Counted from the stretch's first letter, positions 41,231 through 57,183 are shown. The stretch: DNA of 64,000 bases from a virus (IMGVR_UViG_3300018481_000020:1-64000), one strand, 5' to 3'. Program-made: numbers and translations. Notes: a model not told the origin generated them from the letters alone.

Positions 41231-42115
41231 ATGAGGAGTGCGTTCGGAGTCGAGCATGTGGTGGCTGCGCCAGTCTCGAAGTCGCTCAGTGGCGGAGTCT
41301 TCAAGCCGGCCTCGAAGCTGAGCCAGGCTGAGCGCAAGACGGTGGGTGGCTACCGGAAGGCCAAGGGTGTCACCACCAGTGACGCGGAGTGGGCCAGGAA
41401 CATGGGACAGGTCAAGCGACTCCACGACCAGCCCCATCCGGGAATGAGACACACCAAGACGGTGCACGGCAAGCAAGGAACCACTGAGCACTACAAGCAC
41501 AACAGTCGCTCCACCGTGGTGCCACCGGGAGCTGAGGGGTTCCATGTCCGTACCGGGGGCAAGAAGGGCACCTCCTACATCCACATGAAGGACAGCGCTG
41601 GCAAGAGCGTGACCAGGCACGAGGTGGCCCACTCCACCCCGAAACGCACCAGCTACCGGATGAAGCAGATCGTCGACAACCCGAAGAAGACGATGGCCGA
41701 GGAGGGCCGGGCGGACTACGTCGCCTCGGGGCACTACCTGAAGAAGAAGCCCCAGAGTGGCTATGCCCAATCAGCTCGGTACCGCAACGCCGAGGCACGT
41801 GGGGAGAAGAGCGCGAAGAGTGCCCGGAAGTATGGTGGCAAGCCAGCGCGTGGTCTCATGCGCGCAAGAAACGCACCATCTCGGTTCAAGGTGAAGCAAG
41901 CCAGTGGTTCGATGTCTCGAACGATGAACAAGCCAGTGGGTCGTCAGGAGATCGACGAGTACCGCCGGGTGCAGGACAAGATGCATGGCGGAGCTCCGAA
42001 GACTCCCGGGATGAGCACTCGCAAGAAGGTGGCCATCGGAGCCGGCACTACCGGTGTGGCCGGTGGCGGTACCTACGCTGTTTCGCGGAACAGGAAGAAG
42101 AGGTCGAATGGCTGA
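41231..42115 (+). CDS. SAFG-leader protein 1; basic, zincin-like HExxH motif
   Basis: MRSAFGVEH...VSK; RHEVAH...EEGRAD; C-terminal Gly zipper + RNRKKR. Confidence 0.75.
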   Translation: MRSAFGVEHVVAAPVSKSLSGGVFKPASKLSQAERKTVGGYRKAKGVTTSDAEWARNMGQVKRLHDQPHPGMRHTKTVHGKQGTTEHYKHNSRSTVVPPGAEGFHVRTGGKKGTSYIHMKDSAGKSVTRHEVAHSTPKRTSYRMKQIVDNPKKTMAEEGRADYVASGHYLKKKPQSGYAQSARYRNAEARGEKSAKSARKYGGKPARGLMRARNAPSRFKVKQASGSMSRTMNKPVGRQEIDEYRRVQDKMHGGAPKTPGMSTRKKVAIGAGTTGVAGGGTYAVSRNRKKRSNG

Positions 42116-43991
42116 CGTGCGGCTCCCTCAGGGCGACATCTCCACCTGGGACGAGGACAACGCAGGGGACGAGGTTCCACAGCGCACCAAGCCCATGGAC
42201 GAGCTGGGTGTCACCGGGGTCAAGCGTGTCTCTGGCTATGTCGATGAGGAGTTCTTGCCGGCGCTTCGGGGCCGCAAGGCGGTCCGGGTCTACCGGGAGA
42301 TGTCTGCCAACGACTCCATGGTCGGTGCGCTGCTGTTCAGTATCGACAAGCTGCTGCGCGAGGTGGAGTGGAAGGTGCTCCCCGCCGAGCAGTCTGATGA
42401 GGGAGTAGCCGCCCAGGAGTTCCTGGAGTCCTGCATGGACGACATGAACGAGCCGTGGGATGGGTTCATCGGTGAGGTGCTCTCGATGATGACCTATGGC
42501 TGGAGCTGGCACGAGATCGTCTACAAGCGCCGGATCGGTCCCTGGGAGAAGGATCCCCGCAAGCGCAGCAAGTACCAGGACGGGCTGATCGGGTGGCGCA
42601 AGATGCCGATCCGGGCCCAGGAGACATTAATGCGCTGGTCCTTCGACGAGACCGGTGGGGTGAAGGCGATGATCCAGATGGCCCCGCCCCGGTACCAGAC
42701 AACGGTGATCCCGATCGAGAAGTCGATCCTGTTCCGGACCGCGATCGCCAAGGGCAACCCCGAAGGCGTCTCGCTGCTGCGTACCGCCTATCGCGCCTGG
42801 TACTTCAAGAAGCGTCTGGAGGAGTTCGAGGCGATCGGTGTCGAGCGCGACCTGGCCGGGATGCCGGTGGCCAAGGTGCCGGCGGACTACCTGACCGCAG
42901 CCAAGGGCACGCCCCAGGCCAAGACGGTGGATGCCTACCGGAAGATGGTCCGTGGGGTGCGGCGGGACGAGAACGAAGGACTGGTGCTCCCGAACCAGTA
43001 CGACCCGGACACCAAGCAGCCACTGTTCGAGTTCGAGCTGATGAGCTCGGGAGGAACCCGGCAGTTCGACACGAACTCGATCATCCAGCGCTACGAGCAG
43101 CGGATCCTGATGAGCGTGCTGGCCGACTTCATCCTGGTCGGGCACGAGTCAACCGGCTCCTACTCGTTGCACACTGACAAGACCGGGATCTTCCGGGCAG
43201 CCCTGAACTCCCTCGTCAAGTCCATCGCGGACACCTTGAACAGGTATGCAGTGCCTCGGCTATTCGCCCTGAACGGCTGGAAGCTCGACGAGCTGCCCAG
43301 GTTCGAGCCCACCAACGTGGACCCGCCCGATCTGACCCAGCTGGCCTCGTTCATCTCGGCCACCGCTGGTTCGGGGATGCAGTGGTTCCCGGACCCGGAG
43401 CTGGAGAAGTACGTGCGCGAGATCGCGCGCCTGCCGGAGATGACGGATGAGGATGTGGACTACAAGCGTCAGATGCGCCAGCAGGAGCAGGCGATGGAGT
43501 TCGCTGGCTCCCAGATGGAGCTGCTCGGGATGAAGCAGAAGGCCGAGATGACCGCTCAGGGATACACGCCGGAGCAGGCCGAGATGGCCGCTGCCTCACC
43601 GACACCGGAGATGGCTGCCCAGGAGGCTGAGCAGGCTCAGATGATGAACCAGCCGCCCCCGGAGGATCCGGCCGAGGGAGCTCGGCACAGCCGAGACCTG
43701 GAGCGGATGACCACCGAGGAGAAGATCGCGGAGAAGACCCATGCTCGGGAGAAGGAGAAGCTGCGGCTCCAGGACACCATGTCCAACCGAGACCACGGTA
43801 GGACCAAGGAGCAGATGCGCCTGAAGGACCGCTCGGCGGCCCAGAATGCGAAACTGACCTCACAGACCCTGAAGGACAAGGCCAAGTACAGCCGGCCCAG
43901 CCAGGGACCTGCGAAGCCACCTGCAAAGAAGCCTCCTGCGAAGAAGTCCAACGTGGCCGCGAAGAAGCCACCACCGAAGAAGAAGAGGTAG
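42108..43991 (+). CDS. portal protein
   Basis: Position in the head module; YREM..ND..V; YGWSWHEIVYK; NPEG.SLLR.AY..W. Confidence 0.9.
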   Translation: MADVRLPQGDISTWDEDNAGDEVPQRTKPMDELGVTGVKRVSGYVDEEFLPALRGRKAVRVYREMSANDSMVGALLFSIDKLLREVEWKVLPAEQSDEGVAAQEFLESCMDDMNEPWDGFIGEVLSMMTYGWSWHEIVYKRRIGPWEKDPRKRSKYQDGLIGWRKMPIRAQETLMRWSFDETGGVKAMIQMAPPRYQTTVIPIEKSILFRTAIAKGNPEGVSLLRTAYRAWYFKKRLEEFEAIGVERDLAGMPVAKVPADYLTAAKGTPQAKTVDAYRKMVRGVRRDENEGLVLPNQYDPDTKQPLFEFELMSSGGTRQFDTNSIIQRYEQRILMSVLADFILVGHESTGSYSLHTDKTGIFRAALNSLVKSIADTLNRYAVPRLFALNGWKLDELPRFEPTNVDPPDLTQLASFISATAGSGMQWFPDPELEKYVREIARLPEMTDEDVDYKRQMRQQEQAMEFAGSQMELLGMKQKAEMTAQGYTPEQAEMAAASPTPEMAAQEAEQAQMMNQPPPEDPAEGARHSRDLERMTTEEKIAEKTHAREKEKLRLQDTMSNRDHGRTKEQMRLKDRSAAQNAKLTSQTLKDKAKYSRPSQGPAKPPAKKPPAKKSNVAAKKPPPKKKR

Positions 43992-43993
43992 TC

Positions 43994-44263
43994 ATGTACA
44001 GCGCATTCGGTGTAGATCATGGAGTGGTATCCACGACGACAGTCTCCAAGGGCCTCAACCCGTTCAAGGCGTTCGTGGGAGCGAAGAAGGCCAAGCCGGC
44101 GGCTCAGTTCAAGCCCGTCAATCCCGGAATCAATCCTGGGTTCGGAACTCGAAAGATCGCTCCCGGTGGACCAGTGCAGCGTGGATCCAGTGGTGGCTCG
44201 AACGCCATGGAGGACCAGCGGAAGACCGCTCTAGCTGCGGTACAGAAGCCACGGAAGGTGTAG
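43994..44263 (+). CDS. SAFG-leader protein 2 (89 aa, basic)
   Basis: MYSAFGVDHGVVSTTTVSK. Confidence 0.8.
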   Translation: MYSAFGVDHGVVSTTTVSKGLNPFKAFVGAKKAKPAAQFKPVNPGINPGFGTRKIAPGGPVQRGSSGGSNAMEDQRKTALAAVQKPRKV

Positions 44264-44265
44264 CC

Positions 44266-47200
44266 ATGCCGTACACGTCAGATGCTCAGCGCAAGTTCAT
44301 GCACGCGAAGCATCCTGAGATCGCGGCGAAGTGGGATGCCGAGATCCGTGGGAAGAAGAAGAAGATCGCGAAGGGCTGGGCCAAGCCGATCGGCATCGGC
44401 GTGGGAGCCAGCGTGCTCGGTGGTGCTGCGGCCAACCAGATTCCTCCAGTGCAGAAGACTGAGTGGTACCAGGAGCGCCGGCGCAAGAAGAAGAAGAAGG
44501 GTCAGATCAAGAAGATGCTGGCCCCGGTCAGCGATGACCCCTTCTTCAACCAGGAGGCGGCCCAGAAGACCTTCGACCTGATCATGAAGATGGACGACGA
44601 CACCGCTGCGGTGTTCTGCTACATCGTCGCCTCGGACCTCCTGGAGCGGGAGGTGGAGGAGAACCGGGTCACCCTGCAGAAGCACCTGGACGAGGTGGTG
44701 GCCAAGCGACTGACTGATCTGAAGAAGGCCACCCTGCGGGCGGTCAGCAAGGGCATGGAGAATCCTCAGCCGTACGCCCAGGCGCTGGCCATGATCGACT
44801 CGATGATCAGCAAGGCTGATGACGACATCCCGGACTGGGAGTTCGAGCGCAAGATCAAGCGCGACCCCTCCTCGGGTCGGTTCCGGACCAAGTTCAGGTC
44901 CACGCCGCTGAAGAAGCCGATGCCAGACAAGACTGCGAAGACGCTGGGGATCGCAGGTATCACCGGTGATAGGTACAAGAACAAAATGAGTCCCAAGGAG
45001 AAGGCCCGCTACCAGCACCAGTACCTGCAGATAGCCGACTTCCTGGGCGCGGTGAATGCTGCCACCGATGGCGACAACGAGACCTTGGTCCACTTCCGGA
45101 ACGAGGCGACCGGAGAGACCTGGGCAGAGAAGGCCACCAGCACCAAGCCCATGACCACCATGCTGGAAGAGAACGTCTGGGCGGTAGCTGCCGAGGCGAA
45201 GCCAACCACCCTGTCCGTGGGCGGGGCGGCGTTCAGCCTGGCTGGAGCAGCCGGCAAGACCATGTCTGCTGATCAGGTGAAGGCCTTCAACACCGCTGGG
45301 GAGAAGAGTGACGAGTGGAAGGCCTCCTGGCTCACCGACGATAACGGGCAGAACCAGAATGCTCGGCTCTACCAGCGCACGCACACTTTGGGGACGGTGG
45401 CCCAGGAGCTGGGGCCTGATGGCAGCAAGGTTCAACTGGCCGGCAAGATGGCCTCGATCGTCGGACAGTACGGACCTCAGGCCGAAGAGGTGCTCGGGCC
45501 CAGTGCCAGGAAGACCGCCTACCGGTACCGGGGCACGGAGCGGACTCCCGACGAGCGGCTGATCGGTATGTACTCCCGGGCTATCGATCAGAACAAGCGC
45601 CAGGGCGGGCTCAACCCCTTCGAGGAACAGGCTGAGAACCGGATCAGGACTGCGCGCGGAGCCAAGAAGCAGCCGTTCGGGTCTGAGACCGGAGTACGTG
45701 GCAAGGGATCTTCGCGGCCTATGGCTCAGCCCGGAGTCACGCCGGCGATCACCCAGATGGTCCGGGAGCGAGAGGCTGCTGCCGGTCGTGCACCGGATTG
45801 GCGTGAGCGGGAGTTGGGCCGGGTGGCAGTACAGCGCTACCTGATGGACGAGCTGCCCTCCAAGAAGTACTACAAGCTCCAGCTGGCATCAGGGAACACG
45901 CCGCCTTCCGAGGGTGTGATCATCAACTCCGAGGGCCAGATCGTCACCCAGGCCGTGGGCTATGGCGATGACCACTACCTGCCGTTCAACCTGAAGAACC
46001 TCAAGGGACTCAAGGGCGGGGAGTACATCCGGAACCGCTCGGTGGGTGGGCTGACCGCCGAGGATGTGTACACCGGGCTGATCAGCGGAGCCCGCCGGGT
46101 GACCGTGGTATCCCGCTCGGGAACGTTCACGATGGAGTTCAAGCCGGACTTCCGGGGTGGTCGGCGGCACAACGACAAGGCTCGGCGGATGACCAGGCGC
46201 TACGAGCAGGTCCTGGATGCGGTGCAGTCTGAGCAGGTAGAGCGGGCCCCCGTGCCGATGCGTTGGCGCAAGATGATCGAGGAAGAGGTCAAGGCCGAGT
46301 ACGGGCCCACTGCTTCACCGCGTCTGGTTCGGGCCGAGATCGATGCTCGGGAGAGGGAGTTCAAGGCCAACCCTCAGGTCAACGGTCGGGACATGGATCG
46401 GGCCGAGGCCAGCATCAGCCAGTTCGAGGAGCAGCAGAAGCGAGGCCTGGTCAGTGCACAGGACGTGGCCGACTACCGCAAGCAAATCCATAGTGAGCTG
46501 CGCGATCTCAAGGAGATCCACTTCCGGCTGAACGGGGTCGGCTACGAGGCTGCCCTGGACTCCTTGCGCGAGCAGTTCCCCTACTACATCGACGCCCAGT
46601 CGCACCCGACCGCAGAGAACCTGGAGGGTGAGATCCAGGAGCACGAGATGGACATGGGCTACGTGGAGCCCGGCCGGAATCGACCCACCTCGGCCCAGGC
46701 TGGCTGGTTCGGCACTCGCAAGGAGGAGAGCGGCAAGTTCTCTGCGGCCTACTCCGATTACCAGCGTGGTCTGCCGGGTACGCCGGAGCCGCACGGGCAC
46801 CCGCGTGAGAAGGGGAAGTTCAAGCCCACCAACGTCACTTCTTCCACCGGCTCTTCTGGCGGCGGTGCGAGTGTAGGCCTGCGTTCGGATCGTGAGCGGA
46901 CTCGGGACGCTGCGATTGAGGCCCTCCAGGCGAACCAGGCCAAGGAAGGTGTGATCAGCTCCGCAGTGGCCCTGCAGCAGGCAGTCAAGGTGCACAAGCC
47001 GCCCACGGGTATCTCCACCCCGGAATGGTGGTATCACTCCGAGGATCAGATGCGGGAGTACCTGGGCAACGATGCGAACCGGAAGAAGTTCGACACCACC
47101 GTCAGCCAGATCGGAGCGGCCGACTTCGATGAGGCCGGAGCCTCACGGCCGTGGCAGGCCTACCAGACCGCCCGCAAGCGCACCGGTGGTGGTAAGCCCT

Positions 47201-47970
47201 ACTCCCCTGAGCACGCAAACACCTGGCCGACGGAGGGCCCGTACAAGTTCACTGGTGACAACGAGCGGGATGCCTACCGGGCCAGCCCGTTGCCCGGTGC
47301 GGTTGATATTGAGGTCAAGCGACTGGATGGTGAGGACACCTCACTGAAGTTCGGTCGACCACTGTCCGCGCTCAACGGCCGTGAACTCCGCGAGGAGTTC
47401 GAGCTGTCCAAGAACGTGCGCGAGGCGATGAAGACTGCGAAGCTGCAGGGCACGGCAGCCCAGGACGCACTGGGCTCGCAGTTCCAGAACTCTGGATCTG
47501 CCTTCGCCAGCAACTTCTTCCGCGACGACGCTGGTGCCGCCAAGCACTTGGAGAACATCCACCGGATGCACCACCTGAAGTCAAAGAGTGGTGGTGGAAC
47601 CACGGGTGGCGGACCTGTCGGTGGAGTCGGTGGCTTCGGACGGCCCACTCCTCCCCGACCTGGTGGACAAGCTCCTAGTGGAGCCAGGGTCCAACCTCCG
47701 CAAGGTGGTGGTGACAGTAGTGGTCGGTTCGTGGAGCTCGACCCAGACGACGAGAGGTTGGTCGAGGACGCTCGTCGGAAGTACCTGAAGGCTGCCGAGC
47801 AACTCATCTTGAATCCGGAGAGTCAAGAAGAACATGATGCGCTGTACATGTTCAAGGAAGGGATGAAGGGGTCTCATCCGGCGAAGGGATTCAATGAGCA
47901 CACCAAGTGGCTCGAAGAGCTGCCTGACAAGACTCGGACGAAGCTATATGCGCAAGCGGGCTACTCGTGA
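44266..47970 (+). CDS. large multidomain head-associated protein (1234 aa)
   Basis: MPYTSDAQRKFMHAKHPEIA leader, Gly zipper, RDxxxGRF motif, degenerate JAB-like segment. Confidence 0.8.
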   Translation: MPYTSDAQRKFMHAKHPEIAAKWDAEIRGKKKKIAKGWAKPIGIGVGASVLGGAAANQIPPVQKTEWYQERRRKKKKKGQIKKMLAPVSDDPFFNQEAAQKTFDLIMKMDDDTAAVFCYIVASDLLEREVEENRVTLQKHLDEVVAKRLTDLKKATLRAVSKGMENPQPYAQALAMIDSMISKADDDIPDWEFERKIKRDPSSGRFRTKFRSTPLKKPMPDKTAKTLGIAGITGDRYKNKMSPKEKARYQHQYLQIADFLGAVNAATDGDNETLVHFRNEATGETWAEKATSTKPMTTMLEENVWAVAAEAKPTTLSVGGAAFSLAGAAGKTMSADQVKAFNTAGEKSDEWKASWLTDDNGQNQNARLYQRTHTLGTVAQELGPDGSKVQLAGKMASIVGQYGPQAEEVLGPSARKTAYRYRGTERTPDERLIGMYSRAIDQNKRQGGLNPFEEQAENRIRTARGAKKQPFGSETGVRGKGSSRPMAQPGVTPAITQMVREREAAAGRAPDWRERELGRVAVQRYLMDELPSKKYYKLQLASGNTPPSEGVIINSEGQIVTQAVGYGDDHYLPFNLKNLKGLKGGEYIRNRSVGGLTAEDVYTGLISGARRVTVVSRSGTFTMEFKPDFRGGRRHNDKARRMTRRYEQVLDAVQSEQVERAPVPMRWRKMIEEEVKAEYGPTASPRLVRAEIDAREREFKANPQVNGRDMDRAEASISQFEEQQKRGLVSAQDVADYRKQIHSELRDLKEIHFRLNGVGYEAALDSLREQFPYYIDAQSHPTAENLEGEIQEHEMDMGYVEPGRNRPTSAQAGWFGTRKEESGKFSAAYSDYQRGLPGTPEPHGHPREKGKFKPTNVTSSTGSSGGGASVGLRSDRERTRDAAIEALQANQAKEGVISSAVALQQAVKVHKPPTGISTPEWWYHSEDQMREYLGNDANRKKFDTTVSQIGAADFDEAGASRPWQAYQTARKRTGGGKPYSPEHANTWPTEGPYKFTGDNERDAYRASPLPGAVDIEVKRLDGEDTSLKFGRPLSALNGRELREEFELSKNVREAMKTAKLQGTAAQDALGSQFQNSGSAFASNFFRDDAGAAKHLENIHRMHHLKSKSGGGTTGGGPVGGVGGFGRPTPPRPGGQAPSGARVQPPQGGGDSSGRFVELDPDDERLVEDARRKYLKAAEQLILNPESQEEHDALYMFKEGMKGSHPAKGFNEHTKWLEELPDKTRTKLYAQAGYS

Positions 47971-49985: not shown

Positions 49986-50007
49986 CGCAGATGAGGACGA
50001 TGGAGCT

Positions 50008-51048
50008 ATGAGCACAGTGCATGAGCTGCTGGCCACCGACGACACGTTCCGTGAGGTGGCTGATCTGCTGTTCGGTGGGGGCGGGGACCAGCTGATCAGC
50101 AAGATGAACCCGGCCCAGTCCGATGTGGGTTCCCATGGCGGGATGTCGGATCAGAAGAAGCGGAAGATCACCGCCGGCCTGAGCGCAGTAGGTGCGGCTG
50201 CTGGTGGTGCTGGTCTGGCGCTCGGGGGACACAACGTCAGGCGTGGCTACAAGACCGCTCGTGGCCTGCAGAAGGCCGGCCAACTCGCTGGTGGGAAGAA
50301 GAAGGCACTCAAGACTGCCGTCAGTCACGAGAAGCTGGCCACTGGACTGGTTCCACTGGAGATAGCTGGTCTGACCGGTGAGATCGCGGCCACCAAGATC
50401 CTGCACGGGGACACCAAGAAGAAGCAAGGCTCATTGGTCAAGAAGAACCTGGGTGAACTGCTCAACAACGCTTCAGACAAGGCACCGAGCAAGCGGAACG
50501 CTACCAAGGCTGTACTGGACCCGAACAAGCGGCGCAAGGGTCTGGAGTACACCAAGAAGACCGGAGGCGCGCTGCGCCGACTGCCGGACAAGGTGAAGAC
50601 CACCAACGAGGTGAAGAAGTCAGAATCGCCCACAGACCAGGTCGAGGTGGTCTGGGAGGGCGAGATCGCCAAGGCGGACTCCGACAAGCAGCAACTCTTC
50701 GGCTGGGCCTCGGTGATCGAGGTCAACGGCGAGCCGGTGGTGGACCTGCAGGGTGACTACATCTCCGCCGATGAGATGGAGAAGGCCGCCTACTCCTATG
50801 TGCAGAAGTCTCGCAAGGGCGGGGACATGCACCTGCGTGATGAGTGGGAGCCGATCCAGAAGTCGGAGATGATCGAGAGCTTCATCGTCACACCCGAGAA
50901 GCGTGAGGCCATGGGTCTGCCGGAATCGGTGCCCACCGGCTGGTGGGTGGGGTTCAAGGTCAACGACCCCGATGTCTGGTCCAAGGTGAAGTCGGGCGAG
51001 CGGACCGGGTTCTCGATCCACGGGCAGGGTCGGCGCACGCCGGCGTGA
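50008..51048 (+). CDS. XkdF-like capsid maturation protease
   Basis: FGWASV...DLQGDYI...EKAAY...GGDMH...GWWVGFKV.D..W.KVKSG..TGFSIHG. Confidence 0.88.
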   Translation: MSTVHELLATDDTFREVADLLFGGGGDQLISKMNPAQSDVGSHGGMSDQKKRKITAGLSAVGAAAGGAGLALGGHNVRRGYKTARGLQKAGQLAGGKKKALKTAVSHEKLATGLVPLEIAGLTGEIAATKILHGDTKKKQGSLVKKNLGELLNNASDKAPSKRNATKAVLDPNKRRKGLEYTKKTGGALRRLPDKVKTTNEVKKSESPTDQVEVVWEGEIAKADSDKQQLFGWASVIEVNGEPVVDLQGDYISADEMEKAAYSYVQKSRKGGDMHLRDEWEPIQKSEMIESFIVTPEKREAMGLPESVPTGWWVGFKVNDPDVWSKVKSGERTGFSIHGQGRRTPA

Positions 51049-51052
51049 TCCG

Positions 51053-52369
51053 ATGATCAGCGCATTCGGCGTGGACCACGGGGGCGAGGTCTCGAAACTG
51101 GACGACCAGCAGAAGAAGCAAGCCGCTGCCGGTACCGCCGTAGGAGTCGGTGGGGCTGCGGCTGCCTCCCAGGTCCGGGTGCCCGAGCACTCGCACTACA
51201 ACAAGAAGACCCGGGCCTACCTGCACACACTGCCAGCTGGGGTGCACGAGGTGGACACCGCGATGCTGGGCAAGCGCCCCCGCAAGCTCGGAGCCAGGAA
51301 GCAGCAGACTCCGTACGTGGCCGCGATGGCTCAGGAACGTCCCGCGCCTTACTCGCCGGTGCCGATCACTCGATACAAAGGTGACAAGGGCGTCATCCAG
51401 CGTGACAACGCCCACTCGGTGATGGCAAACGCGATGAAGGGCAGGAAGACCACCATCAAGATCGAGGACTCTCCGCATCACCGTCCGGTTCGTCCCGCTG
51501 GTGAGGAAGCGGTCCGTCGACTCCAGGGCAGGTACCAGCAGCGCCGGCTGAGGCAGAACACGAATCTGTCTGAGAAGAAGATCAACCAGCACGTGAAGGC
51601 ATACAAGCCAAGCTCGCGGAAGGCCAACACCACTAAGCGCCCGCACGGTGTGATCGAGGATCAGATCAAGTCCAGTCGGCACAAGTACGGGGCCAAGGTG
51701 GCCTTGGGTCTGATTCGCAAGGATCAGCGACGCCGAGACACGGCCGCTGGAGCTGCCGGGGTGGCGGGCGGAGGCGTACTGGCCACCACCCCGGTTCGGC
51801 GCTCGGGAGCCAAGGTGAAGATCCACGAGACCAAGTCGGGACCAAGGATCAGGTCAGCCGAGGCCAAGAAGATCGTCAGTCCCGGCTACCGGCCAGGCAA
51901 CCGACGGGCCATCCAGGGGATGGCACACAAGCTGCCGAAGAACGCTCAGGGCCCAACCAAGGTGATCAGATACAAGGGCGGCCAGGTGATCCCCTGGGAC
52001 GGCAACCACCGTGCCACCGCACGGATCGCGCGCGGGGACAAGTCCATCCCGGTCAAGGTGATCGAGGGTGGTGAGCGGCCAGCAGTCAGCGTCACCCGAA
52101 ATGCCATCCATGTGGGACAACAGCGGGTGCACCAGCGTCGGATGAACCGTGGGGACTTCACATCTCTGGGCAAGCCGAGCAAGCCAGGCAAGGCCTACCA
52201 CGCCATCGCCAACGCCTCTCCGACTCGATCCGGCCGCAAGGAGCTGACCACCGTCCGAGCTGCCTCCGGTCCGACCAAGGCAGCGCTGCGTACCAAGCAA
52301 GGTGCGACAGTTACCGCAGGAGCAGCTCTCCTGGGAACTGCTCACCACCTGAACCGGAAGAAGGACTGA
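51053..52369 (+). CDS. SAFG-leader protein 3; tandem ParB/Srx-like domains
   Basis: MISAFGVDHGGEVSK; WDGNHR...IPVKVI; duplicated RYKG unit. Confidence 0.75.
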   Translation: MISAFGVDHGGEVSKLDDQQKKQAAAGTAVGVGGAAAASQVRVPEHSHYNKKTRAYLHTLPAGVHEVDTAMLGKRPRKLGARKQQTPYVAAMAQERPAPYSPVPITRYKGDKGVIQRDNAHSVMANAMKGRKTTIKIEDSPHHRPVRPAGEEAVRRLQGRYQQRRLRQNTNLSEKKINQHVKAYKPSSRKANTTKRPHGVIEDQIKSSRHKYGAKVALGLIRKDQRRRDTAAGAAGVAGGGVLATTPVRRSGAKVKIHETKSGPRIRSAEAKKIVSPGYRPGNRRAIQGMAHKLPKNAQGPTKVIRYKGGQVIPWDGNHRATARIARGDKSIPVKVIEGGERPAVSVTRNAIHVGQQRVHQRRMNRGDFTSLGKPSKPGKAYHAIANASPTRSGRKELTTVRAASGPTKAALRTKQGATVTAGAALLGTAHHLNRKKD

Positions 52370-52370
52370 G

Positions 52371-53261
52371 ATGGCGCGAGCAATGAGCGACACCGAGATC
52401 AGGCATCGCAAGAAGCTCCAGGCCGGGGCCTCCCAGGCTGGCGGCGTGCTCGGACTGACTGCGCTCGGCGGCACCATGGTGGCCAGCAGGGGCGGTCGGA
52501 ACACCCTGCGCAAGATCCCACAGCTGAAGTCGCGACTGGCTGCCCCGCCGCCCAAGGACCCGAACCGGGACCGGATCAAGGGCGCGGTCACCCCAGTGCT
52601 GGCCACCGGGGCTGGTATCGGTGGAGCCTCGGCGTTCAACTTCGCCTCCTATACCCGCGCGGAGTCCAAGAAGCGACAGAAGCCAGCGGTGGTCGGCCAA
52701 CCACCGTCACGGATCAAGAAGAGAGAGGACGAGCCGATGGAGATGGGCTACTACGGTGAGGTCGGCCGTCCCGTCCGACTCACCGAGATCGAGGTGCCAG
52801 TCAGCAAGGCCTGGCAGCCATCGGCCGGGAACTTCGACTCCGAGACCGCTCGGAAGAAGCGGACCAAGGGATACCAGGGCGCTGCCCTGGTCGGGGCGGG
52901 TGCCGGTGGTGCCTATGCCGGACATCACGGGATGAAGGCCGCACACGCGGCTGGCAAGATCAAGCCAGTCTCGATGGGCCTCATGGAGACCAGGACGGTT
53001 GACGCCCATGGGACCACCCGCCGGGTGCCGAAGGTGGCCGGCAGAAGGGGTTCCAAGAAGGCGCACGTGATCGAGGAGAAGGCGATCCCGACGAAGGCGC
53101 TGAAGGCTGCTGGCAAGCATGGTGGTCGAACTGCCCTTGGAGTGGGTGCGGTGGCCGCTGCTGCCGGCACTCATCGGGCGCTGAAGCGCAAGGAGAAGGG
53201 CTCCTGGCAGCCATATGCGAAGCGTGACTCGGCCAGCGCGTTCGGAATCAACCACGCATGA
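52371..53261 (+). CDS. basic Gly-zipper protein with C-terminal SAFG motif
   Basis: Four Gly/Ala segments; ends YAKRDSASAFGINHA. Confidence 0.75.
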   Translation: MARAMSDTEIRHRKKLQAGASQAGGVLGLTALGGTMVASRGGRNTLRKIPQLKSRLAAPPPKDPNRDRIKGAVTPVLATGAGIGGASAFNFASYTRAESKKRQKPAVVGQPPSRIKKREDEPMEMGYYGEVGRPVRLTEIEVPVSKAWQPSAGNFDSETARKKRTKGYQGAALVGAGAGGAYAGHHGMKAAHAAGKIKPVSMGLMETRTVDAHGTTRRVPKVAGRRGSKKAHVIEEKAIPTKALKAAGKHGGRTALGVGAVAAAAGTHRALKRKEKGSWQPYAKRDSASAFGINHA

Positions 53262-53301
53262 GTGGACAGCACCGTGAGACTGAGAACTAGAGGTAGATGA
53301 A

Positions 53302-54132
53302 ATGCCACGTCCAAGGATGAACTTGACCGACATGGATATCGATGAGATCTCCACGGTCGACAAGGCAGCGAACCAGCTCTCGCGGTTCGTCATCGCGAAG
53401 AGGGCTCCCGAGGAGGATGAGATGCCCAAGCTTTTCAACCAGGAGGGACAGCCCCTCGATGAGCAGGACCTTGAGTTCGGTGATGTTGTGTTCGACGACC
53501 AGGGCAATGCCTATGAGTACGTCGAAGACGGCGACACCGAAGAGTACGAAGTGCACGAAGAAGAGTCTCAGCCAGAGCTTGCCGGAGTCGGCAAGCGGGC
53601 ACCGGAACAGTCCGCCTTCTTCGAGAACAAGCCTCAGCAGGGCTCGTTCACTGCATCGGTGATGGAGGAGCTCTCCAAGGCGTTCTCCGATGAGGATCGC
53701 GACCAGGTGATCGCCAAGGCGCTGGGTCGGGTCGAGCAGATCGAGTCCCAGTTCAGTGAGGTCGCCAAGGCGGCCCAGGCTGAGCGCGACCTTCGGCTCA
53801 CTCGGGAGTACATCTCCAAGGCCGCCGAGTACAACCTCCCGGTCGACGCAGCTGAGCTTGGTCCGGTGCTCTACCGGATGGCCGAGCAGATGAGCTATGA
53901 CGACTGCTCGGTGATCGCCAAGTGCCTGGAGACGGCCGGCGAGATCATCTACGAAGAGGTCGGCTACCAGGGTGGCGGCGACAACGCCGATGTCTACTCC
54001 CAGGTCGCGCAGCACGCCTACGACACATTCGGCAAGGCCGAGGACTTCACTGAGGTCACGGCCATCAACAAGGTGTTCGACGACAACCCGGATGCCTACG
54101 ACGAGTACCTGGCCGCGCAGCGGAACCAGTAG
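53302..54132 (+). CDS. scaffolding protein with N-terminal protease-like strand
   Basis: Acidic, helical, upstream of the capsid genes; EISTVDKAAN. Confidence 0.8.
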   Translation: MPRPRMNLTDMDIDEISTVDKAANQLSRFVIAKRAPEEDEMPKLFNQEGQPLDEQDLEFGDVVFDDQGNAYEYVEDGDTEEYEVHEEESQPELAGVGKRAPEQSAFFENKPQQGSFTASVMEELSKAFSDEDRDQVIAKALGRVEQIESQFSEVAKAAQAERDLRLTREYISKAAEYNLPVDAAELGPVLYRMAEQMSYDDCSVIAKCLETAGEIIYEEVGYQGGGDNADVYSQVAQHAYDTFGKAEDFTEVTAINKVFDDNPDAYDEYLAAQRNQ

Positions 54133-54150
54133 GAAAGGTAGGGAAGCTCG

Positions 54151-54555
54151 ATGGCATACGAAGAGAGCCTCAGATCCATCACGCTGAACGCGGATGCGTC
54201 TCTGGGCATCTACACGGGCGTGCCGGGCCAGCCGGGCTCCCCCGATCCTCACGGAGCGAAGCAGTATCACTTCGTGAAGGTGACTGGGGTCCACCAGGTA
54301 GGTCTCGCCGACGCTGCCGCCACTACGGTGGTCGGGGTGCTGCAGAACAAGCCTCAAGGTCCAGGCCAGGCTGCCACGGTCGGCTACCACGGAGTGACCA
54401 AGGTCGTCTCCGACGTGGCGCTCACCGCTGGTGACCCGATCAAGGTCAGTGCCGATGGCCAAGCCGCGAAGACCGGAGCTGGTCCCACTGTCGGGATCGC
54501 GCTCAACACCACTGCTACCGCTGGAGAACTCGCCGTTGTTCTCCTGACGATCTGA
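54151..54555 (+). CDS. capsid decoration/cement protein (DUF2190-like)
   Basis: QYHFVK...GVLQNKP...AGD.I...ADGQA...GIAL. Confidence 0.8.
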   Translation: MAYEESLRSITLNADASLGIYTGVPGQPGSPDPHGAKQYHFVKVTGVHQVGLADAAATTVVGVLQNKPQGPGQAATVGYHGVTKVVSDVALTAGDPIKVSADGQAAKTGAGPTVGIALNTTATAGELAVVLLTI

Positions 54556-54568
54556 GAGGAGTCAAGAC

Positions 54569-55567
54569 ATGCCGAACCCCACTCAGAGCGATCTCCACGT
54601 CAACGTTCCGCTGACCAACGTCAGCGTCGCGTACATGCAGGACAAGGCGACGTTCATCGCGGACAAGGTGTTCCCGAGAGTTCCGGTCAACAAGCAGAGC
54701 GACCTGTACTGGAAGTACTCGAAGTCCGATTGGCGTCGTACCGACGCGCAGAAGCGTGCGCCCGGTACCGAGACTGCTGGTGTTGGCTGGAAGGTCGACA
54801 CGGGGCAGTACTTCGCCGAGGTCTGGGGTGTCCACAAGGACATCGACGACCAGGTGCGGGCCAACGCCGACAGCAACTGGCGGCTGGACTCGGACGCCAC
54901 CACCTTCGTCACGAACCAGCTCCTGCTGCGCCGTGACCTGGACTGGAACGACAAGTTCTTCAAGACCGGCCAGTGGGGTACCGACCTCGCCGGAGTCACC
55001 GGGACTGTAGGTGCTGGTCAGTTCCTGCAGTGGAGCGACCCGAACTCAGACCCGATCGTGCAGTTCTCGGACTTGCAGACCAACTTCGTGGAGCAGTCTG
55101 GTCGCAAGGCCAACACGATGGTCCTCGGAGCGCGAGCGATCACCCAGCTGAAGAACCACCCGGACATCATTGACCGGATCAAGTACACCCAGCGTGGTGT
55201 GGTGACCACCGATCTGCTCGCCAGCCTGTTCGATGTCGAGCGGATCCTGGTCAGCTACGCGACGGTGACCGACGTGGCCGAGATCAACGACGCCAAGGCT
55301 CAGGACGCTGCGGCGACGTACCGGTTCATGTCCAACTCCAAGTCGGCGCTGCTCTGCTACACCCCGAGCTCGCCGTCGCTGATGACGCCGGCCGCTGGCT
55401 ATTGCTTCACCTGGAACGGATACCTGGCTGGCAACAAGTTCGGGATCCGGATCAAGAACTTCCGGATGGAGCCGATCGCTGCGGACCGCATCGAGGGAGA
55501 AATGACCTACGACATGCGCGTCGTGGCGCGGGACATGGGCATCTTCCTGTCCAACGCTGTGGCCTGA
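54569..55567 (+). CDS. major capsid protein
   Basis: HVNVPLTNVSVAY...FIADKVFP.VPV.KQSD.Y...RAPG; context. Confidence 0.92.
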   Translation: MPNPTQSDLHVNVPLTNVSVAYMQDKATFIADKVFPRVPVNKQSDLYWKYSKSDWRRTDAQKRAPGTETAGVGWKVDTGQYFAEVWGVHKDIDDQVRANADSNWRLDSDATTFVTNQLLLRRDLDWNDKFFKTGQWGTDLAGVTGTVGAGQFLQWSDPNSDPIVQFSDLQTNFVEQSGRKANTMVLGARAITQLKNHPDIIDRIKYTQRGVVTTDLLASLFDVERILVSYATVTDVAEINDAKAQDAAATYRFMSNSKSALLCYTPSSPSLMTPAAGYCFTWNGYLAGNKFGIRIKNFRMEPIAADRIEGEMTYDMRVVARDMGIFLSNAVA

Positions 55568-55578
55568 TCACACGATCT

Positions 55579-55617
55579 GAGGTGGGCTGTGGGTTAACCT
55601 CCTGCAGCCCATCTTTC
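55579..55617 (+). terminator. intrinsic terminator after the capsid gene
   Basis: GGTGGGCTGTGGG / CCTGCAGCCCATC + TTT. Confidence 0.7.
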
Positions 55618-55631
55618 AATAGGAGCCAAGG

Positions 55632-55964
55632 ATGGAATCAGCGTTCGGTGTAGACCACGGAGAGATCTCCACGACGACAGTCTCCAAGTTCGCATCCACT
55701 CTCGTTGCTGGTGGCGCTGGTGGTGTTGCTGGATCCAAGCGAGCCAAGAAGAAGTACAAGAGTCAGGCGGCAACTTCGGGAATGCTGCGTACTGCAGGTG
55801 GCGAGCTCGCTGGCCAGACGGTTGGCGGTCTAGCTGGATTGGCTGCTGCTCGGGGTCGGCCAACTGGGATCCTGGCTGGCGGCGCAGCTGGCAGTGTCGG
55901 GGGCGGCGTCCTCGGCAACGCATCAGCACGCGGGAAGGCCAAGCGCGAGGGGTGGACGAAGTAG
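55632..55964 (+). CDS. SAFG-leader protein 4 (glycine zipper)
   Basis: MESAFGVDHGEISTTTVSK; GxxxG repeats. Confidence 0.8.
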   Translation: MESAFGVDHGEISTTTVSKFASTLVAGGAGGVAGSKRAKKKYKSQAATSGMLRTAGGELAGQTVGGLAGLAAARGRPTGILAGGAAGSVGGGVLGNASARGKAKREGWTK

Positions 55965-56489
55965 ATGCCCAGTCAACTGCTCGCCAACGACAAGATCTCC
56001 TTCGTGGTCTGCAAGCCGTTCACCTCGCGCGGCAAGGACTACCAGACAGGTGACGACTTCCCGCAGGAGGAAGCCCGAGACATCGAGGTGTTCGTCCGAG
56101 CCCGGTTCGTGATCCCGGTGGTCGACGACATCGAGGACAAGAAGTTCATCCGGCACTGGCACAAGGAGATCCGCCCCAAGGACGAGGTGCTGGCCCGGCT
56201 GTTCCATGACCGGGTCCAGCTGCGGATGCACCACGAGCCGGACTCCGAAGAGGTGGTCAGCATCGAGAAGCTGGTCCGTCCGAACTCTCCGGACGTGCCA
56301 GACGACGATGGTCAGCCCGAGCTGCCCTTCGATGAGCCCGCCGTGGCGGCCCACAAGGACCAGTACGACCCCAGCTACCACACGGTGGTCGAGGTCAACG
56401 AGTACCTGGCTGTCCATCCAGAGGAGCGAGAGCGCATTCTCGAAGATGAGCGCGGCGGCAAGAACCGCAAGGGAATCTTGGAGGTGTGA
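55965..56489 (+). CDS. hypothetical head-associated protein
   Basis: C-terminal TVVEV.EYL...RIL..E..GKNRKGIL helical module. Confidence 0.7.
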   Translation: MPSQLLANDKISFVVCKPFTSRGKDYQTGDDFPQEEARDIEVFVRARFVIPVVDDIEDKKFIRHWHKEIRPKDEVLARLFHDRVQLRMHHEPDSEEVVSIEKLVRPNSPDVPDDDGQPELPFDEPAVAAHKDQYDPSYHTVVEVNEYLAVHPEERERILEDERGGKNRKGILEV

Positions 56490-56842
56490 TGACGACCAGT
56501 GCATTCGGAGTCGACCACGGCTTCGAGGATGTTGAGAAGGCTTTCGGCATGGGCGGCGGTGGCGCGTTGGGCGGTGGCCTGCGCAAGCTCGGTCAGAACA
56601 TCGGGATGGGCGCGCGCAAGGGTGCGGCCGGAGCCGGCAAGATGGCCCGGCCCAACGTCGGTGCGGGCGGGGCTCGTGGAGTTCTGGGTAGGGGCCAGGT
56701 TCAGGCCGGTCGTGGTCTGAAGCAGGCTAGTAACTTCGCCATGAAGCGGCCCGGACTCACTGGCGGGCTCGCCGCCGGCGGTACAGCTGGTGCCGTCGGT
56801 GGCGGTGGGTACGCCATGGGGAACCGCCGTAGGCAGTACTGA
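56489..56842 (+). CDS. SAFG-leader protein 5 (Gly/Arg-rich)
   Basis: MTTSAFGVDHGFEDVEKAF. Confidence 0.8.
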   Translation: MTTSAFGVDHGFEDVEKAFGMGGGGALGGGLRKLGQNIGMGARKGAAGAGKMARPNVGAGGARGVLGRGQVQAGRGLKQASNFAMKRPGLTGGLAAGGTAGAVGGGGYAMGNRRRQY

Positions 56843-57183
56843 TGTACAGCGCGTTCGGGGTCGACCATGGAGACATCTCCAAGGGCCTCAAGCTGAGCTG
56901 GGCCAAGCGACCCAGGAAGCTGACCCGTGCCCAGATACGCACTCAGGGCCAGGGCACTGGCAAGGGCACCCGGACCGAAGCCGTCACCAGGAAGCTGAAG
57001 AACGCCACCGAGACTCCCGTCTCGATCGCCGGCACGGGTCGCGCTGCTGGTCGAGGTATCACTGGAACTGGCGCGTTCATGCAGAACCACCCTGGGGTCA
57101 CCGGCTCCGCTCTGGTGGGAGGGGGCGGAGCAGCCGCGTATCACCACCTGAAGCAGAAGGAACCGAAGCGGAGGTCATCCTGA
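56842..57183 (+). CDS. SAFG-leader protein 6 (basic)
   Basis: MYSAFGVDHGDISK. Confidence 0.8.
   Translation: MYSAFGVDHGDISKGLKLSWAKRPRKLTRAQIRTQGQGTGKGTRTEAVTRKLKNATETPVSIAGTGRAAGRGITGTGAFMQNHPGVTGSALVGGGGAAAYHHLKQKEPKRRSS

What the first reader, a model, noticed from the sequence alone, without database searches (positions are those of the whole stretch)
41231..57183. Family of head-module proteins sharing an N-terminal SAFGV(D/E)H leader: candidate capsid-cargo targeting system
Seen: six ORFs interleaved among portal, protease, capsid and neck genes begin with the same motif, followed within about 10 aa by (V/I)xK. They are 41231 MRSAFGVEH..VSK, 43994 MYSAFGVDHG..VSK, 51053 MISAFGVDHG..VSK, 55632 MESAFGVDHG..VSK, 56489 MTTSAFGVDHG..VEK and 56842 MYSAFGVDHGDISK. 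A seventh protein (52371) has it at the extreme C-terminus after a Lys motif (YAK-RDSASAFGINHA), and the MuF protein has FSK-SAFG-IVRK internally (~48846). After the leader the proteins differ completely (89-438 aa: zincin, ParB-like, Gly zippers) but all are very basic. Known: T4 internal proteins IPI-III share a ~10-aa N-terminal capsid-targeting sequence that the prohead protease removes. Inference: SAFGVDHG is an analogous portable tag that docks diverse cargo into the prohead and is clipped at the xxK site. I do not recognise this motif from any described system.
Basis: partly seen in the sequence, partly recalled or inferred. Interest (0 to 1): 0.9.

Follow-up and report, generated by a model that had tools for sequence, protein, structure and literature searches.

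The report
Removable capsid-loading tag on phage proteins
An uncultured 81-kb phage and hundreds of its relatives attach the same seven-residue peptide, separated from the protein by a lysine cutting site, to many unrelated and extremely basic proteins encoded among the head genes; it is most likely a removable address label that loads them into the capsid, but no experiment has yet shown packaging or cutting.

Summary
Six ORFs start with M-x-S-A-F-G-V-[DE]-H, one ends with the motif, and MuF holds a degenerate internal copy. Chance expects about 0.005 copies per genome. Codon third positions vary, so selection acts on the peptide.

The tag recurs in at least 68 IMG/VR loci of one phage lineage and in 529 protein clusters. 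It is strictly bipartite: all 107 non-redundant N-terminal copies are followed 3-10 residues later by [IVFL]-x-K. C-terminal and internal copies have a hydrophobic-x-K on the side facing the protein body. Some relatives are polyproteins with up to four bracketed tags.

[IV][SAE]K covers 5 of 12 scaffold lysines, against 15 of 520 in background ORFs and 0 of 17 in the capsid protein. It also flanks the catalytic domain of the XkdF-type protease.

Best reading: an address tag plus protease site for internal head proteins, analogous to the T4 capsid-targeting sequence. It differs in the tag sequence, in a Lys-specific non-T4 protease, and in placement at either end or internally. Docking and cleavage are inferred, not shown.

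The scan has noted T4-type leader systems on other DNA, but never this motif.

The parts
41231..42115 (+). Tagged protein c294 (294 aa). Leader is aa 1-17 (41231-41281), ending V-S-K. The body has pI 10.9, an HExxH motif, and a Gly-rich segment plus basic tail at the C-terminus.
42054..43991 (+). Portal protein (phrog_113). Homologs suggest the start is the Met at 42108. The C-terminal tail is very basic.
43994..44263 (+). Tagged protein c89 (89 aa). Leader is aa 1-19 (43994-44050). Mature part pI 11.6.
44266..47970 (+). 1234-aa head-module protein with no family match. It is conserved in the lineage. Its four [IV][SAE]K sites all lie in the first 183 residues (first one I-A-K at aa 36), and a Gly-rich segment plus basic cluster sits near the N-terminus.
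47967..49985 (+). MuF-like minor head protein (PF04233, aa 199-284). The MuF domain ends in F-S-K (48837-48845), followed by a degenerate tag SAFGIVRK (48846-48869) and then a 372-aa C-terminal part.
50008..51048 (+). XkdF-type prohead protease (PF14550, aa 219-343). Its N-terminal diverged leader ends I-S-K at aa 32 (50008-50103). It then has a helical Gly/Ala-rich basic extension and E-I-A-K (50662-50673) directly before the catalytic domain.
51053..52369 (+). Tagged protein c438 (438 aa). Leader is aa 1-15 (51053-51097). The body has pI 11.4, an internal duplication and a DGNHR motif.
52371..53261 (+). C-terminally tagged protein c296C (296 aa, pI 11.0). Y-A-K at 53214-53222, spacer and tag SAFGINH-A at 53223-53258, stop at 53259-53261. 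Homologs are found in 22 related loci, always between the protease and the scaffold.
53302..54132 (+). Scaffold-like acidic protein (276 aa, pI 4.1). Its conserved N-terminal 33-residue segment ends I-A-K (53302-53400). 5 of its 12 Lys lie in [IV][SAE]K.
54151..54555 (+). 134-aa head protein (phrog_673; weak Phage_cement match, E 0.055). It has no [IV][SAE]K site.
54569..55567 (+). Major capsid protein (phrog_1005, E 7e-89). None of its 17 Lys lies in [IV][SAE]K.
55632..55964 (+). Tagged protein c110 (110 aa). Leader is aa 1-19 (55632-55688). Mature part pI 11.7, 46% Gly+Ala.
55965..56489 (+). Untagged acidic 174-aa conserved head/neck-module protein (phrog_29381), flanked by tagged genes throughout the lineage.
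56489..56842 (+). Tagged protein c118 (117 aa from the ATG at 56489). Leader is aa 1-17 (56489-56539), ending V-E-K. Mature part pI 12.0, 50% Gly+Ala.
56842..57183 (+). Tagged protein c113 (113 aa). Leader is aa 1-14 (56842-56883), ending I-S-K. Mature part pI 12.0. It belongs to the largest cargo cluster (14 of 107; tblastn matches in 22 related loci).

Best explanation
SAFG[VI][DE]H is a portable seven-residue tag. It is joined to the protein body through a short spacer of variable length and a Lys site. The site is [IV]-[SEA]-K downstream of N-terminal copies and hydrophobic-x-K upstream of C-terminal copies; internal copies have both.

Proposed mechanism: during procapsid assembly the heptapeptide docks the tagged protein to a conserved internal component of the procapsid. 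That component could be the scaffold, the protease or the shell; it has not been identified. The XkdF-type prohead protease enters with its own diverged leader. It then cuts after the Lys, which removes the tags, releases its own catalytic domain and dismantles the scaffold at the same motif. The extremely basic, Gly/Ala-rich bodies, together with a few larger proteins such as an HExxH protein, stay in the head with the DNA and are probably ejected with it.

Shown here: the motif, its three placements, the spacing and Lys rule, peptide-level selection, enrichment of the Lys motif in the scaffold and at the protease domain boundary, confinement to one phage lineage, and the diversity and basicity of the bodies. 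Inferred: cleavage, docking, presence in virions, and ejection.
For: 1. Portability. Among the S-preceded hits, 129 are N-terminal (101 + 28), 30 C-terminal and 14 internal or other. Some ORFs end exactly at the His.
2. Lys rule. All 107 non-redundant N-terminal ORFs have a Lys 3-10 residues after the His. K-2 is I52/V50/F4/L1, against 13% hydrophobic at K-2 for 1,104 other Lys in the same proteins. K-1 is S/E/A in 93% against 19%. 22 of 23 non-redundant C-terminal copies have Y/V/L/F at K-2 of a Lys 1-9 residues upstream. 12 of 21 internal copies in library proteins have hydrophobic-x-K immediately before the Ser. Polyproteins carry up to 4 bracketed tags.
3. The same tripeptide marks the expected protease substrates. 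In the scaffold, 5 of 12 Lys lie in the motif against 15 of 520 in 53 background ORFs (Fisher 3e-5), and the MCP has 0 of 17. Across the lineage, scaffolds have 140 of 364 Lys in the motif, against 2-18% in ten other head proteins, and 4 of the 5 window sites are positionally conserved.
4. Protease. PF14550, E 4.5e-22. The best structural match of its domain is T4 gp21 protease (Z 7.8, rmsd 4.0, 103 residues aligned). K222 before the domain is invariant and K32 of its own leader is at least 90% conserved among 120 homologs. The leader-like N-terminus is shown.
5. The variable tag-to-Lys spacing, and scaffold sites that lack the heptapeptide, argue that the heptapeptide is read separately from the scissile site.
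6. Context. 63 of 68 tagged loci hold head/neck homologs in conserved synteny.
7. Bodies. They fall into 63 clusters out of 107, with pI 9.8-12.0. T4 internal proteins are likewise basic and carry a bipartite targeting/processing leader (passages of PMC9026906).
8. Peptide-level selection. All six Ser codons are used at tag position 1.
Against: No virion, proteomic or biochemical data exist for this lineage, and no cultured member was found. The tag's binding partner is unidentified. Internal tags in polyproteins would be unnecessary if one tag sufficed for loading, which fits a protease-exosite role equally well. Two loci with real tags (L097, L059) lie next to tail-fibre-like and replication genes, not head genes. 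The Lys motif is not excluded from the shell protein in relatives (median 1 site; 32 of 549 Lys). XkdF-type protease specificity has not been measured in anything I could find: the one search gave 6 papers, of which I saw the listing and abstract openings only. The A, F, G and H of the tag were part of the search pattern, so their invariance within the fetched set is partly by construction. The flanking Met, Ser and Lys rule were not in the pattern. The 53 hits without a preceding Ser were dropped from the counts, and a few of them may be real variants.
Confidence: 0.6

Rival explanations
1. The heptapeptide is only a recognition (exosite) element for the prohead protease. It ensures efficient processing or activation of pro-proteins. 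Incorporation into the head would then be driven by other features, such as the basic, Gly/Ala-rich module binding the acidic scaffold or the DNA.
For: Every module of the polyproteins keeps its own bracketed tag. The protease, the 1234-aa protein and the tagged bodies share Gly/Ala-rich segments followed by basic clusters. The scaffold is acidic (pI 4.1) and the bodies are basic (pI about 11-12).
Against: Scaffold sites carry [IV][SAE]K without any heptapeptide, so the protease apparently needs no such element. The tag lies on either side of the putative scissile bond at variable distance, which is awkward for a single exosite geometry.
Confidence: 0.2
2. The leader is a pro-segment that keeps these extremely basic or membrane-active proteins harmless or soluble in the infected cell, through chaperone or partner binding. 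Alternatively, it acts after ejection in the next host. In either case it would have no role in capsid loading.
For: The leaders are acidic to neutral (pI 4.3-8.5) on bodies of pI 10.9-12.0. Many bodies have uncharged Gly-rich segments that could be membrane-active (63 of 107).
Against: Seven to nineteen residues cannot offset 13-87 basic residues. The Lys site between tag and body, shared with the scaffold and the protease, ties the leader to head maturation. The genes are interleaved with head and neck genes.
Confidence: 0.1
3. The conservation reflects a nucleotide-level element at gene starts (translation signal, promoter, recombination boundary), or a secretion or lipidation signal, and not a capsid-related peptide.
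For: The motif sits at the very start of most of the genes.
Against: Synonymous positions vary freely. All six Ser codons, four Ala codons and four Gly codons are used. The motif also occurs at C-termini and inside ORFs. The leader has no hydrophobic core or lipobox (directly visible).
Confidence: 0.02

Closest known systems
Capsid targeting sequence (CTS) of phage T4 internal proteins IPI-III and Alt, removed by prohead protease gp21 (passages of PMC9026906)
   Same: A short leader shared by otherwise unrelated, basic internal head proteins. The logic is bipartite, with a targeting part followed by a processing part. The same cleavage motif occurs in the scaffold/core proteins. The protease itself is suspected of carrying targeting propeptides. 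Alt is also processed at its C-terminus.
   Different: There is no sequence resemblance to the T4 leader. The protease family is different (XkdF PF14550, not T4 gp21), although the fold matches gp21 (Z 7.8). The putative cut is after Lys, not after Glu (T4 specificity is partly recalled). The tag works from the N-terminus, the C-terminus or between modules of polyproteins. The capsid protein is lambda-E-like (the annotation of its Rhizobium-phage relatives) with a separate scaffold, in an ~81-kb genome.
Encapsulin cargo-loading peptides (passages of PMC7355545)
   Same: A short peptide at either the N- or C-terminus of diverse cargo directs loading into a shell. The small-hydrophobic-Gly-hydrophobic core of the tag resembles encapsulin peptides; that resemblance is recalled, not tested.
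   Different: Encapsulin peptides are not described as being cleaved off. Encapsulin shells have no portal, scaffold or protease. Binding of this tag to the capsid protein is not established.
N-terminal packaging signal of phage P1 DarB (abstract and passages of PMC9024508)
   Same: An N-terminal segment is sufficient to send a protein, and a reporter, into the capsid.
   Different: The P1 signal is about 30 residues on a single 250-kDa protein, not a shared heptapeptide on dozens of proteins. No either-end placement or polyproteins are described.
Propeptides of giant phage SPN3US/phiKZ head proteins, cut by gp245 (passages of PMC10052503)
   Same: Many head and ejection proteins lose propeptides at a protease motif that recurs within those propeptides. 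The protease cuts itself.
   Different: The SPN3US propeptides are mostly long (111-254 residues) and do not share a tag. The protease is T4-type.
Capsid and scaffold N-terminal extensions of Staphylococcus phage 80alpha, removed by the host Prp protease
   Same: A shared N-terminal motif on head proteins that is clipped off.
   Different: There the motif mimics host ribosomal protein L27 and the protease is a host enzyme. Here a phage protease and a scaffold-wide motif are implicated.

Membership tests
T4-type capsid targeting sequence system | A short leader shared by otherwise unrelated internal head proteins | tested here: met
   Six N-terminal copies in the window on bodies with no mutual similarity. 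107 non-redundant tagged ORFs fall into 63 clusters.
T4-type capsid targeting sequence system | The leader ends in the prohead protease's cleavage motif, which also recurs in scaffold/core proteins | tested here: met
   Shown by sequence only. [IVFL]-x-K follows 107 of 107 leaders. The scaffold has 5 of 12 Lys in the motif against 15 of 520 background; the lineage has 140 of 364. Cleavage itself was not measured.
T4-type capsid targeting sequence system | The protease belongs to the T4 gp21 family and cuts after Glu | tested here: not met
   The protease matches PF14550 XkdF. The motif ends in Lys. Only the fold resembles gp21 (Z 7.8).
T4-type capsid targeting sequence system | The leader is sufficient to package a foreign protein | not testable with these tools
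   Needs an encapsidation experiment.
Encapsulin cargo-loading peptide | A short peptide at either terminus of the cargo | tested here: met
   Both N-terminal and C-terminal copies occur.
Encapsulin cargo-loading peptide | The shell is an encapsulin (no portal, scaffold or maturation protease) | tested here: not met
   Portal, MuF, XkdF protease, scaffold-like protein and neck genes surround the capsid gene.
Encapsulin cargo-loading peptide | The peptide binds the inner face of the shell protein | not testable with these tools
   Needs a binding assay or cryo-EM of procapsids.
Peptidase_S78_2 / XkdF prohead protease (the 50008-51048 protein) | Match to the family profile above the curated cut-off | tested here: met
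   PF14550, 78.8 bits against a cut-off of 24, E 4.5e-22, aa 219-343.
Peptidase_S78_2 / XkdF prohead protease (the 50008-51048 protein) | Fold of phage/herpesvirus capsid-assembly proteases | tested here: inconclusive
   Rank 1 of 48,161 chains is T4 gp21 (Z 7.8, rmsd 4.0, 103 residues aligned, model 220-346), but Z under 8 is middling. Foldseek gave no match at E <= 0.001.
Zincin metallopeptidase (cargo c294) | HExxH plus a downstream third ligand in a zincin fold | tested here: inconclusive
   HExxH and EE[GA]RAD are invariant in 10 sequences. There is no Pfam or PDB sequence match. The model has pLDDT 43. The atlas rows are M48/M56/M78 at TM 0.29-0.37.
ParB_N / sulfiredoxin-like domain (cargo c438) | Match to the ParB_N profile or fold, with the DGxHR motif | tested here: inconclusive
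   DGNHR is present in the second of two diverged repeats. There is no Pfam or PDB sequence match. The atlas feature scores of 0.80 are leads only.

The most novel reading that the evidence does not exclude
A position-independent, excisable address tag. The heptapeptide would bind the inner face of an HK97-fold phage shell (or its scaffold) in the way encapsulin cargo peptides bind their shells, and would then be clipped off at a Lys site by an XkdF-type protease. This would be a mechanistic bridge between phage capsid-targeting sequences and encapsulin cargo loading. A large uncultured clade of ~80-kb phages would use it to load a fast-evolving set of hundreds of ultra-basic Gly-zipper proteins and polyproteins, serving as DNA counter-ions, ejection-channel parts or injected effectors.
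Probability: 0.2. Interest if true: 0.85.

Novelty: new variant of a known kind. Interest (0 to 1): 0.7.

Why it matters
Removable capsid-targeting leaders have been worked out experimentally in T4, with a packaging signal shown for P1 DarB. This finding suggests the same address-plus-cut-site logic arose with a different tag, a different protease family and a Lys-specific site, in a lambda-E-type capsid with a separate scaffold.

It adds two features not described for T4. The tag works from either end, and whole polyproteins are punctuated by excisable tags.

It gives a testable specificity ([IV]-[SEA]-K) for XkdF-type proteases, for which I found no measured cleavage site. It defines a large, unexplored class of ultra-basic internal head proteins (529 clusters at 50% identity). 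It also offers a compact 14-residue leader that could be tried for loading foreign proteins into phage capsids.

Tried and rejected
**Searches that found no close relative or no domain**
- Megablast of 41-58 kb against INPHARED gave no match.
- tblastn of a 25-residue leader against phages at E <= 10 gave no match; the query is too short to be decisive.
- The closest cultured capsid relatives (Arthrobacter phages Kovu and Ottawa, Microbacterium phage ValentiniPuff, at most 47% identity) have no tag in 19-29 kb around the capsid gene.
- tblastn of the scaffold against phages gave no match.
- A scan of 185,579 species genomes for ATG-x-Ser-AFGVDHG gave 3 hits. All are chance matches with no Lys site, and one lies inside a longer ORF. 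No prophage was seen, within the limits of an exact pattern.
- Pfam and PHROGs found nothing for the seven tagged window proteins. Pfam found nothing for 10 longer tagged relatives.
- Sequence searches against PDB with c438 and with the c294 profile gave nothing meaningful.

**Structure work that did not help**
- Complex prediction of the capsid protein (alignment of 121 rows) with the 36-residue leader (99 rows) returned no verdict: 0.24 and 0.06 against a mark of 0.32, and the controls were not run. This is no evidence either way. Scaffold, protease and portal were not tried because the cap is one job.
- Foldseek of the full-length protease model against PDB gave no match at E <= 0.001.
- The c294 fold has mean pLDDT 43 and was not searched.
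- The full-length protease fold gave no readable information on whether its leader docks in cis.
- The protein atlas gave leads only.

**Readings rejected**
- A nucleotide-level element.
- A secretion or lipoprotein signal: there is no hydrophobic core, and the tag also occurs at C-termini.
- A released signalling peptide: considered, but the bodies themselves share conserved properties, and nothing suggests export.

**Not seen:** supplements of the cited papers were not opened.

Full report
**What is in the window.** The window is the first 64 kb of an 81,457-bp IMG/VR virus record rated complete. It has 62% G+C and no tRNA genes. It has no nucleotide-level relative among 50,697 deposited phage genomes.

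Positions 41.2-58.8 kb hold a head/neck module on the + strand. In order, it contains:
- a tagged 294-aa protein;
- the portal (phrog_113);
- a tagged 89-aa protein;
- a 1234-aa protein with no family match;
- a MuF-like protein (PF04233);
- an XkdF-type protease (PF14550, E 4.5e-22);
- a tagged 438-aa protein;
- a C-terminally tagged 296-aa protein;
- an acidic scaffold-like protein;
- a 134-aa head protein;
- the major capsid protein (phrog_1005);
- three more tagged small proteins, interleaved with a 174-aa protein and followed by neck genes.

Upstream lie replication genes (DnaB-like helicase, primase, DNA polymerase, Cas4-like exonuclease) and a 2424-aa tail-fibre-like protein.

A six-frame scan finds SAFG nine times:
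- six copies at ORF starts (41231, 43994, 51053, 55632, 56489, 56842);
- one at the extreme C-terminus of the 52371 ORF;
- one degenerate copy inside MuF, directly after F-S-K;
- one unrelated hit at 33536.

The whole genome has 7 matches to SAFG[VI].H, all in the head module. 200 shuffles gave a mean of 0.005.

The DNA around the copies aligns only at the codon positions that fix the amino acids. Among 107 relatives, all six Ser codons, four Ala codons and four Gly codons are used. Selection therefore acts on the peptide. The six mature bodies in the window share no significant similarity (best E 0.08) and have pI 10.9-12.0.

**The tag is widespread but confined to one lineage.** About a third of the matches are unrelated or out-of-frame families.

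A relaxed search of these loci plus the genome gave 226 hits:
- 53 were not preceded by Ser and were set aside; a few of these may be real variants.
- Of the rest, 129 sit at ORF starts (101 clear, 28 with an open frame upstream).
- 30 sit at ORF ends, some ending exactly at the His.
- 14 are internal or other.

Sixty-eight loci plus the window carry 1-7 tags each. Sixty-three of the 68 contain homologs of the window's head/neck genes. The conserved order is portal, 1234-aa protein, MuF, XkdF, C-tagged genes, scaffold, 134-aa protein, capsid, then N-tagged genes interleaved with the 174-aa protein, adaptor, a 141-aa protein and neck.

Three of the five loci without head/neck homologs are chance matches. 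The other two (L097, L059) are real tags beside tail-fibre-like and replication genes.

The capsid lineage is large: 3,598 proteins match at E <= 1e-20, and many contigs are near 80 kb.

A profile of 99 leaders, searched against 1.84 billion cluster representatives, found 529 at E <= 0.001. In 143 of the best 150, the tag starts within the first four residues.

No prophage copy was found in 185,579 species genomes. The nearest cultured capsid relatives lack the tag. Two literature searches for the motif strings returned nothing.

**The leader is bipartite.** None of the following was part of the search pattern.
- In all 107 non-redundant N-terminal ORFs (collapsed from 129), the first Lys after the His lies 3-10 residues away, most often 5.
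- K-2 is I, V, F or L in 107 of 107, against 13% hydrophobic for 1,104 other lysines of the same proteins.
- K-1 is S, E or A in 93%, against 19%.
- The next residue is mostly A, G, S or L.

The rule is mirrored at C-terminal copies. 22 of 23 non-redundant cases have Y, V, L or F at K-2 of a Lys 1-9 residues upstream of the tag. The exception has no ORF behind it.

Internal copies have a site on both sides. Several library proteins are polyproteins with two to four tags, each bracketed as hydrophobic-x-K, tag, spacer, hydrophobic-x-K. The tag is therefore always separable from the body by cuts after Lys.

**The Lys motif marks the expected protease substrates.**
- In the window's scaffold-like protein, 5 of 12 lysines lie in [IV][SAE]K. 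This compares with 15 of 520 in 53 ORFs outside the module (Fisher 3e-5) and 0 of 17 in the capsid protein.
- Over the lineage, scaffolds have 140 of 364 lysines in the motif, against 2-18% for ten other head and neck proteins. Four of the five window sites are positionally conserved.
- The scaffold's strongly conserved N-terminal 33 residues end in I-A-K.
- In the protease, E-[IF]-[AS]-K lies directly before the catalytic domain in 14 of 14 lineage sequences, and that Lys is invariant in 120 homologs.
- The protease N-terminus is a diverged leader: a hydrophobic-F-G stretch, a spacer, then I-[SA]-K. Its Lys is at least 90% conserved.
- The MuF domain ends in hydrophobic-x-K in most relatives. 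Only the window and one other locus have a tag-like insert there.
- The catalytic domain folds confidently. Its best match among 48,161 chains is the T4 gp21 capsid-assembly protease (Z 7.8, rmsd 4.0, 103 residues aligned). That score is middling, and Foldseek found nothing significant.

**Interpretation.** I take [IV]-[SEA]-K to be the cut site of the XkdF-type prohead protease (about 0.8). I take the tagged proteins to be internal head proteins (about 0.75).

The heptapeptide must do something beyond marking the scissile bond, for two reasons. Scaffold sites lack it, and its distance from the Lys varies on both sides. The most economical role is docking to a conserved procapsid component (about 0.55). 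This matches the T4 capsid-targeting sequence, whose first residues target and whose last residues direct processing. The T4 cargo is likewise basic (passages of PMC9026906).

The main rival is a protease exosite with no loading role. Retention of a tag on every module of the polyproteins favours that rival. Neither reading has been tested experimentally, and the receptor is unknown.

**The cargo.** Bodies fall into 63 clusters out of 107. The median length is 100 residues, and pI ranges from 9.8 to 12.0. 63 of 107 have an uncharged Gly-rich stretch, and 57 of 107 have a basic C-terminal tail. The protease extension and the 1234-aa protein carry similar Gly-rich-plus-basic modules.
- The c294 family keeps HExxH and EE[GA]RAD invariant, but could not be placed by profile, PDB sequence search or fold.
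- c438 has an internal duplication and a DGNHR motif, with only weak ParB_N leads.
- No Pfam domain was found in ten longer tagged relatives.

**Comparison with known systems.** The system works like the T4 CTS but is not a member of that system. The tag sequence, the protease family and the residue before the cut all differ. The either-end and internal placement and the polyproteins are not described for T4. Either-end placement recalls encapsulin cargo-loading peptides, but those are not cleaved and their shells lack portal, scaffold and protease. P1 DarB and SPN3US propeptides are looser parallels.

Earlier notes of this scan describe T4-type leader expansions on other DNA, none with this motif. 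One of them prompted the scaffold-enrichment test.

A cultured Rhizobium phage has an XkdF domain (~33% identity) and this capsid type. It shows the same scaffold/capsid contrast in the Lys motif (5 of 36 lysines against 0 of 16) but has no tags. The protease rule may therefore be older than the tag.

**Verdict.** The reading is partly supported, and it is a new variant of a known kind. The finding is of real interest to phage-assembly specialists, but it rests entirely on sequence evidence.

Noticed in passing
window 50008-50103 and relatives (L042, L017, L054/L119): The XkdF protease itself begins with a diverged version of the cargo leader: a hydrophobic-F-G stretch, a spacer, then I-[SA]-K. 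In the more distant relative L042 it is close to the cargo tag.
   Followed up: partly
window 50150-50410, 44360-44520, and the C-termini of the tagged ORFs: A second shared module is present in the protease extension, near the N-terminus of the 1234-aa protein, four times in the 296-aa protein, and in most small tagged proteins. It is an uncharged Gly/Ala-rich helix-like stretch followed by His/Tyr/Asn and a Lys/Arg cluster. Its role (membrane insertion, bundling, DNA binding) is unexplained.
   Followed up: partly
P0246 (399 aa), P0296 (692 aa) and eight other library proteins: These are polyproteins in which two to four tags separate small basic modules. Each internal tag is bracketed by Lys sites.
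   Followed up: partly
window 53302-53400; L131 9366-9470: The scaffold N-terminus (E-I-S-[LT]-V-D-K-x-A-N-Q ... I-A-K) is nearly invariant across the lineage. The scaffold-position protein of cultured Rhizobium phage RHph_TM3_3_9 starts in a similar way. This may be a separate docking or processing segment.
   Followed up: partly
window 48870-48930 and MuF homologs: After the Lys site that ends the MuF domain, most relatives share an H-P-R-x(3-6)-G-R motif of unknown function.
   Followed up: no
window 38696-41197: This is an 833-aa Thr/Ser/Ala-rich protein with diverged ~20-residue (60-bp) repeats (arrays at 40091-40242 and 40894-41058). It lies between the tail-fibre-like genes and the first tagged gene.
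   Followed up: partly
window 24863-32137: A 2424-aa protein matches tail-fibre and host-range families in many stretches (phrog_38044, E 4.5e-180).
   Followed up: no
L097 2577-3185: A WhiB-like regulator is encoded in a related tagged locus. Together with the capsid relatives from Arthrobacter and Microbacterium phages, it hints at actinobacterial hosts for the lineage. The host of the window phage is unknown.
   Followed up: no
window 51053-52369: The 438-aa tagged protein contains an internal duplication (pairwise E 4e-5) of an R-Y-K-G ... D-x-x-H module. The second copy reads DGNHR.
   Followed up: partly
window 43870-43991 (portal C-terminus): The portal ends in a long Lys/Pro-rich basic tail that is conserved in character among relatives. 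This is unusual for portals and, like the cargo, strongly basic.
   Followed up: no
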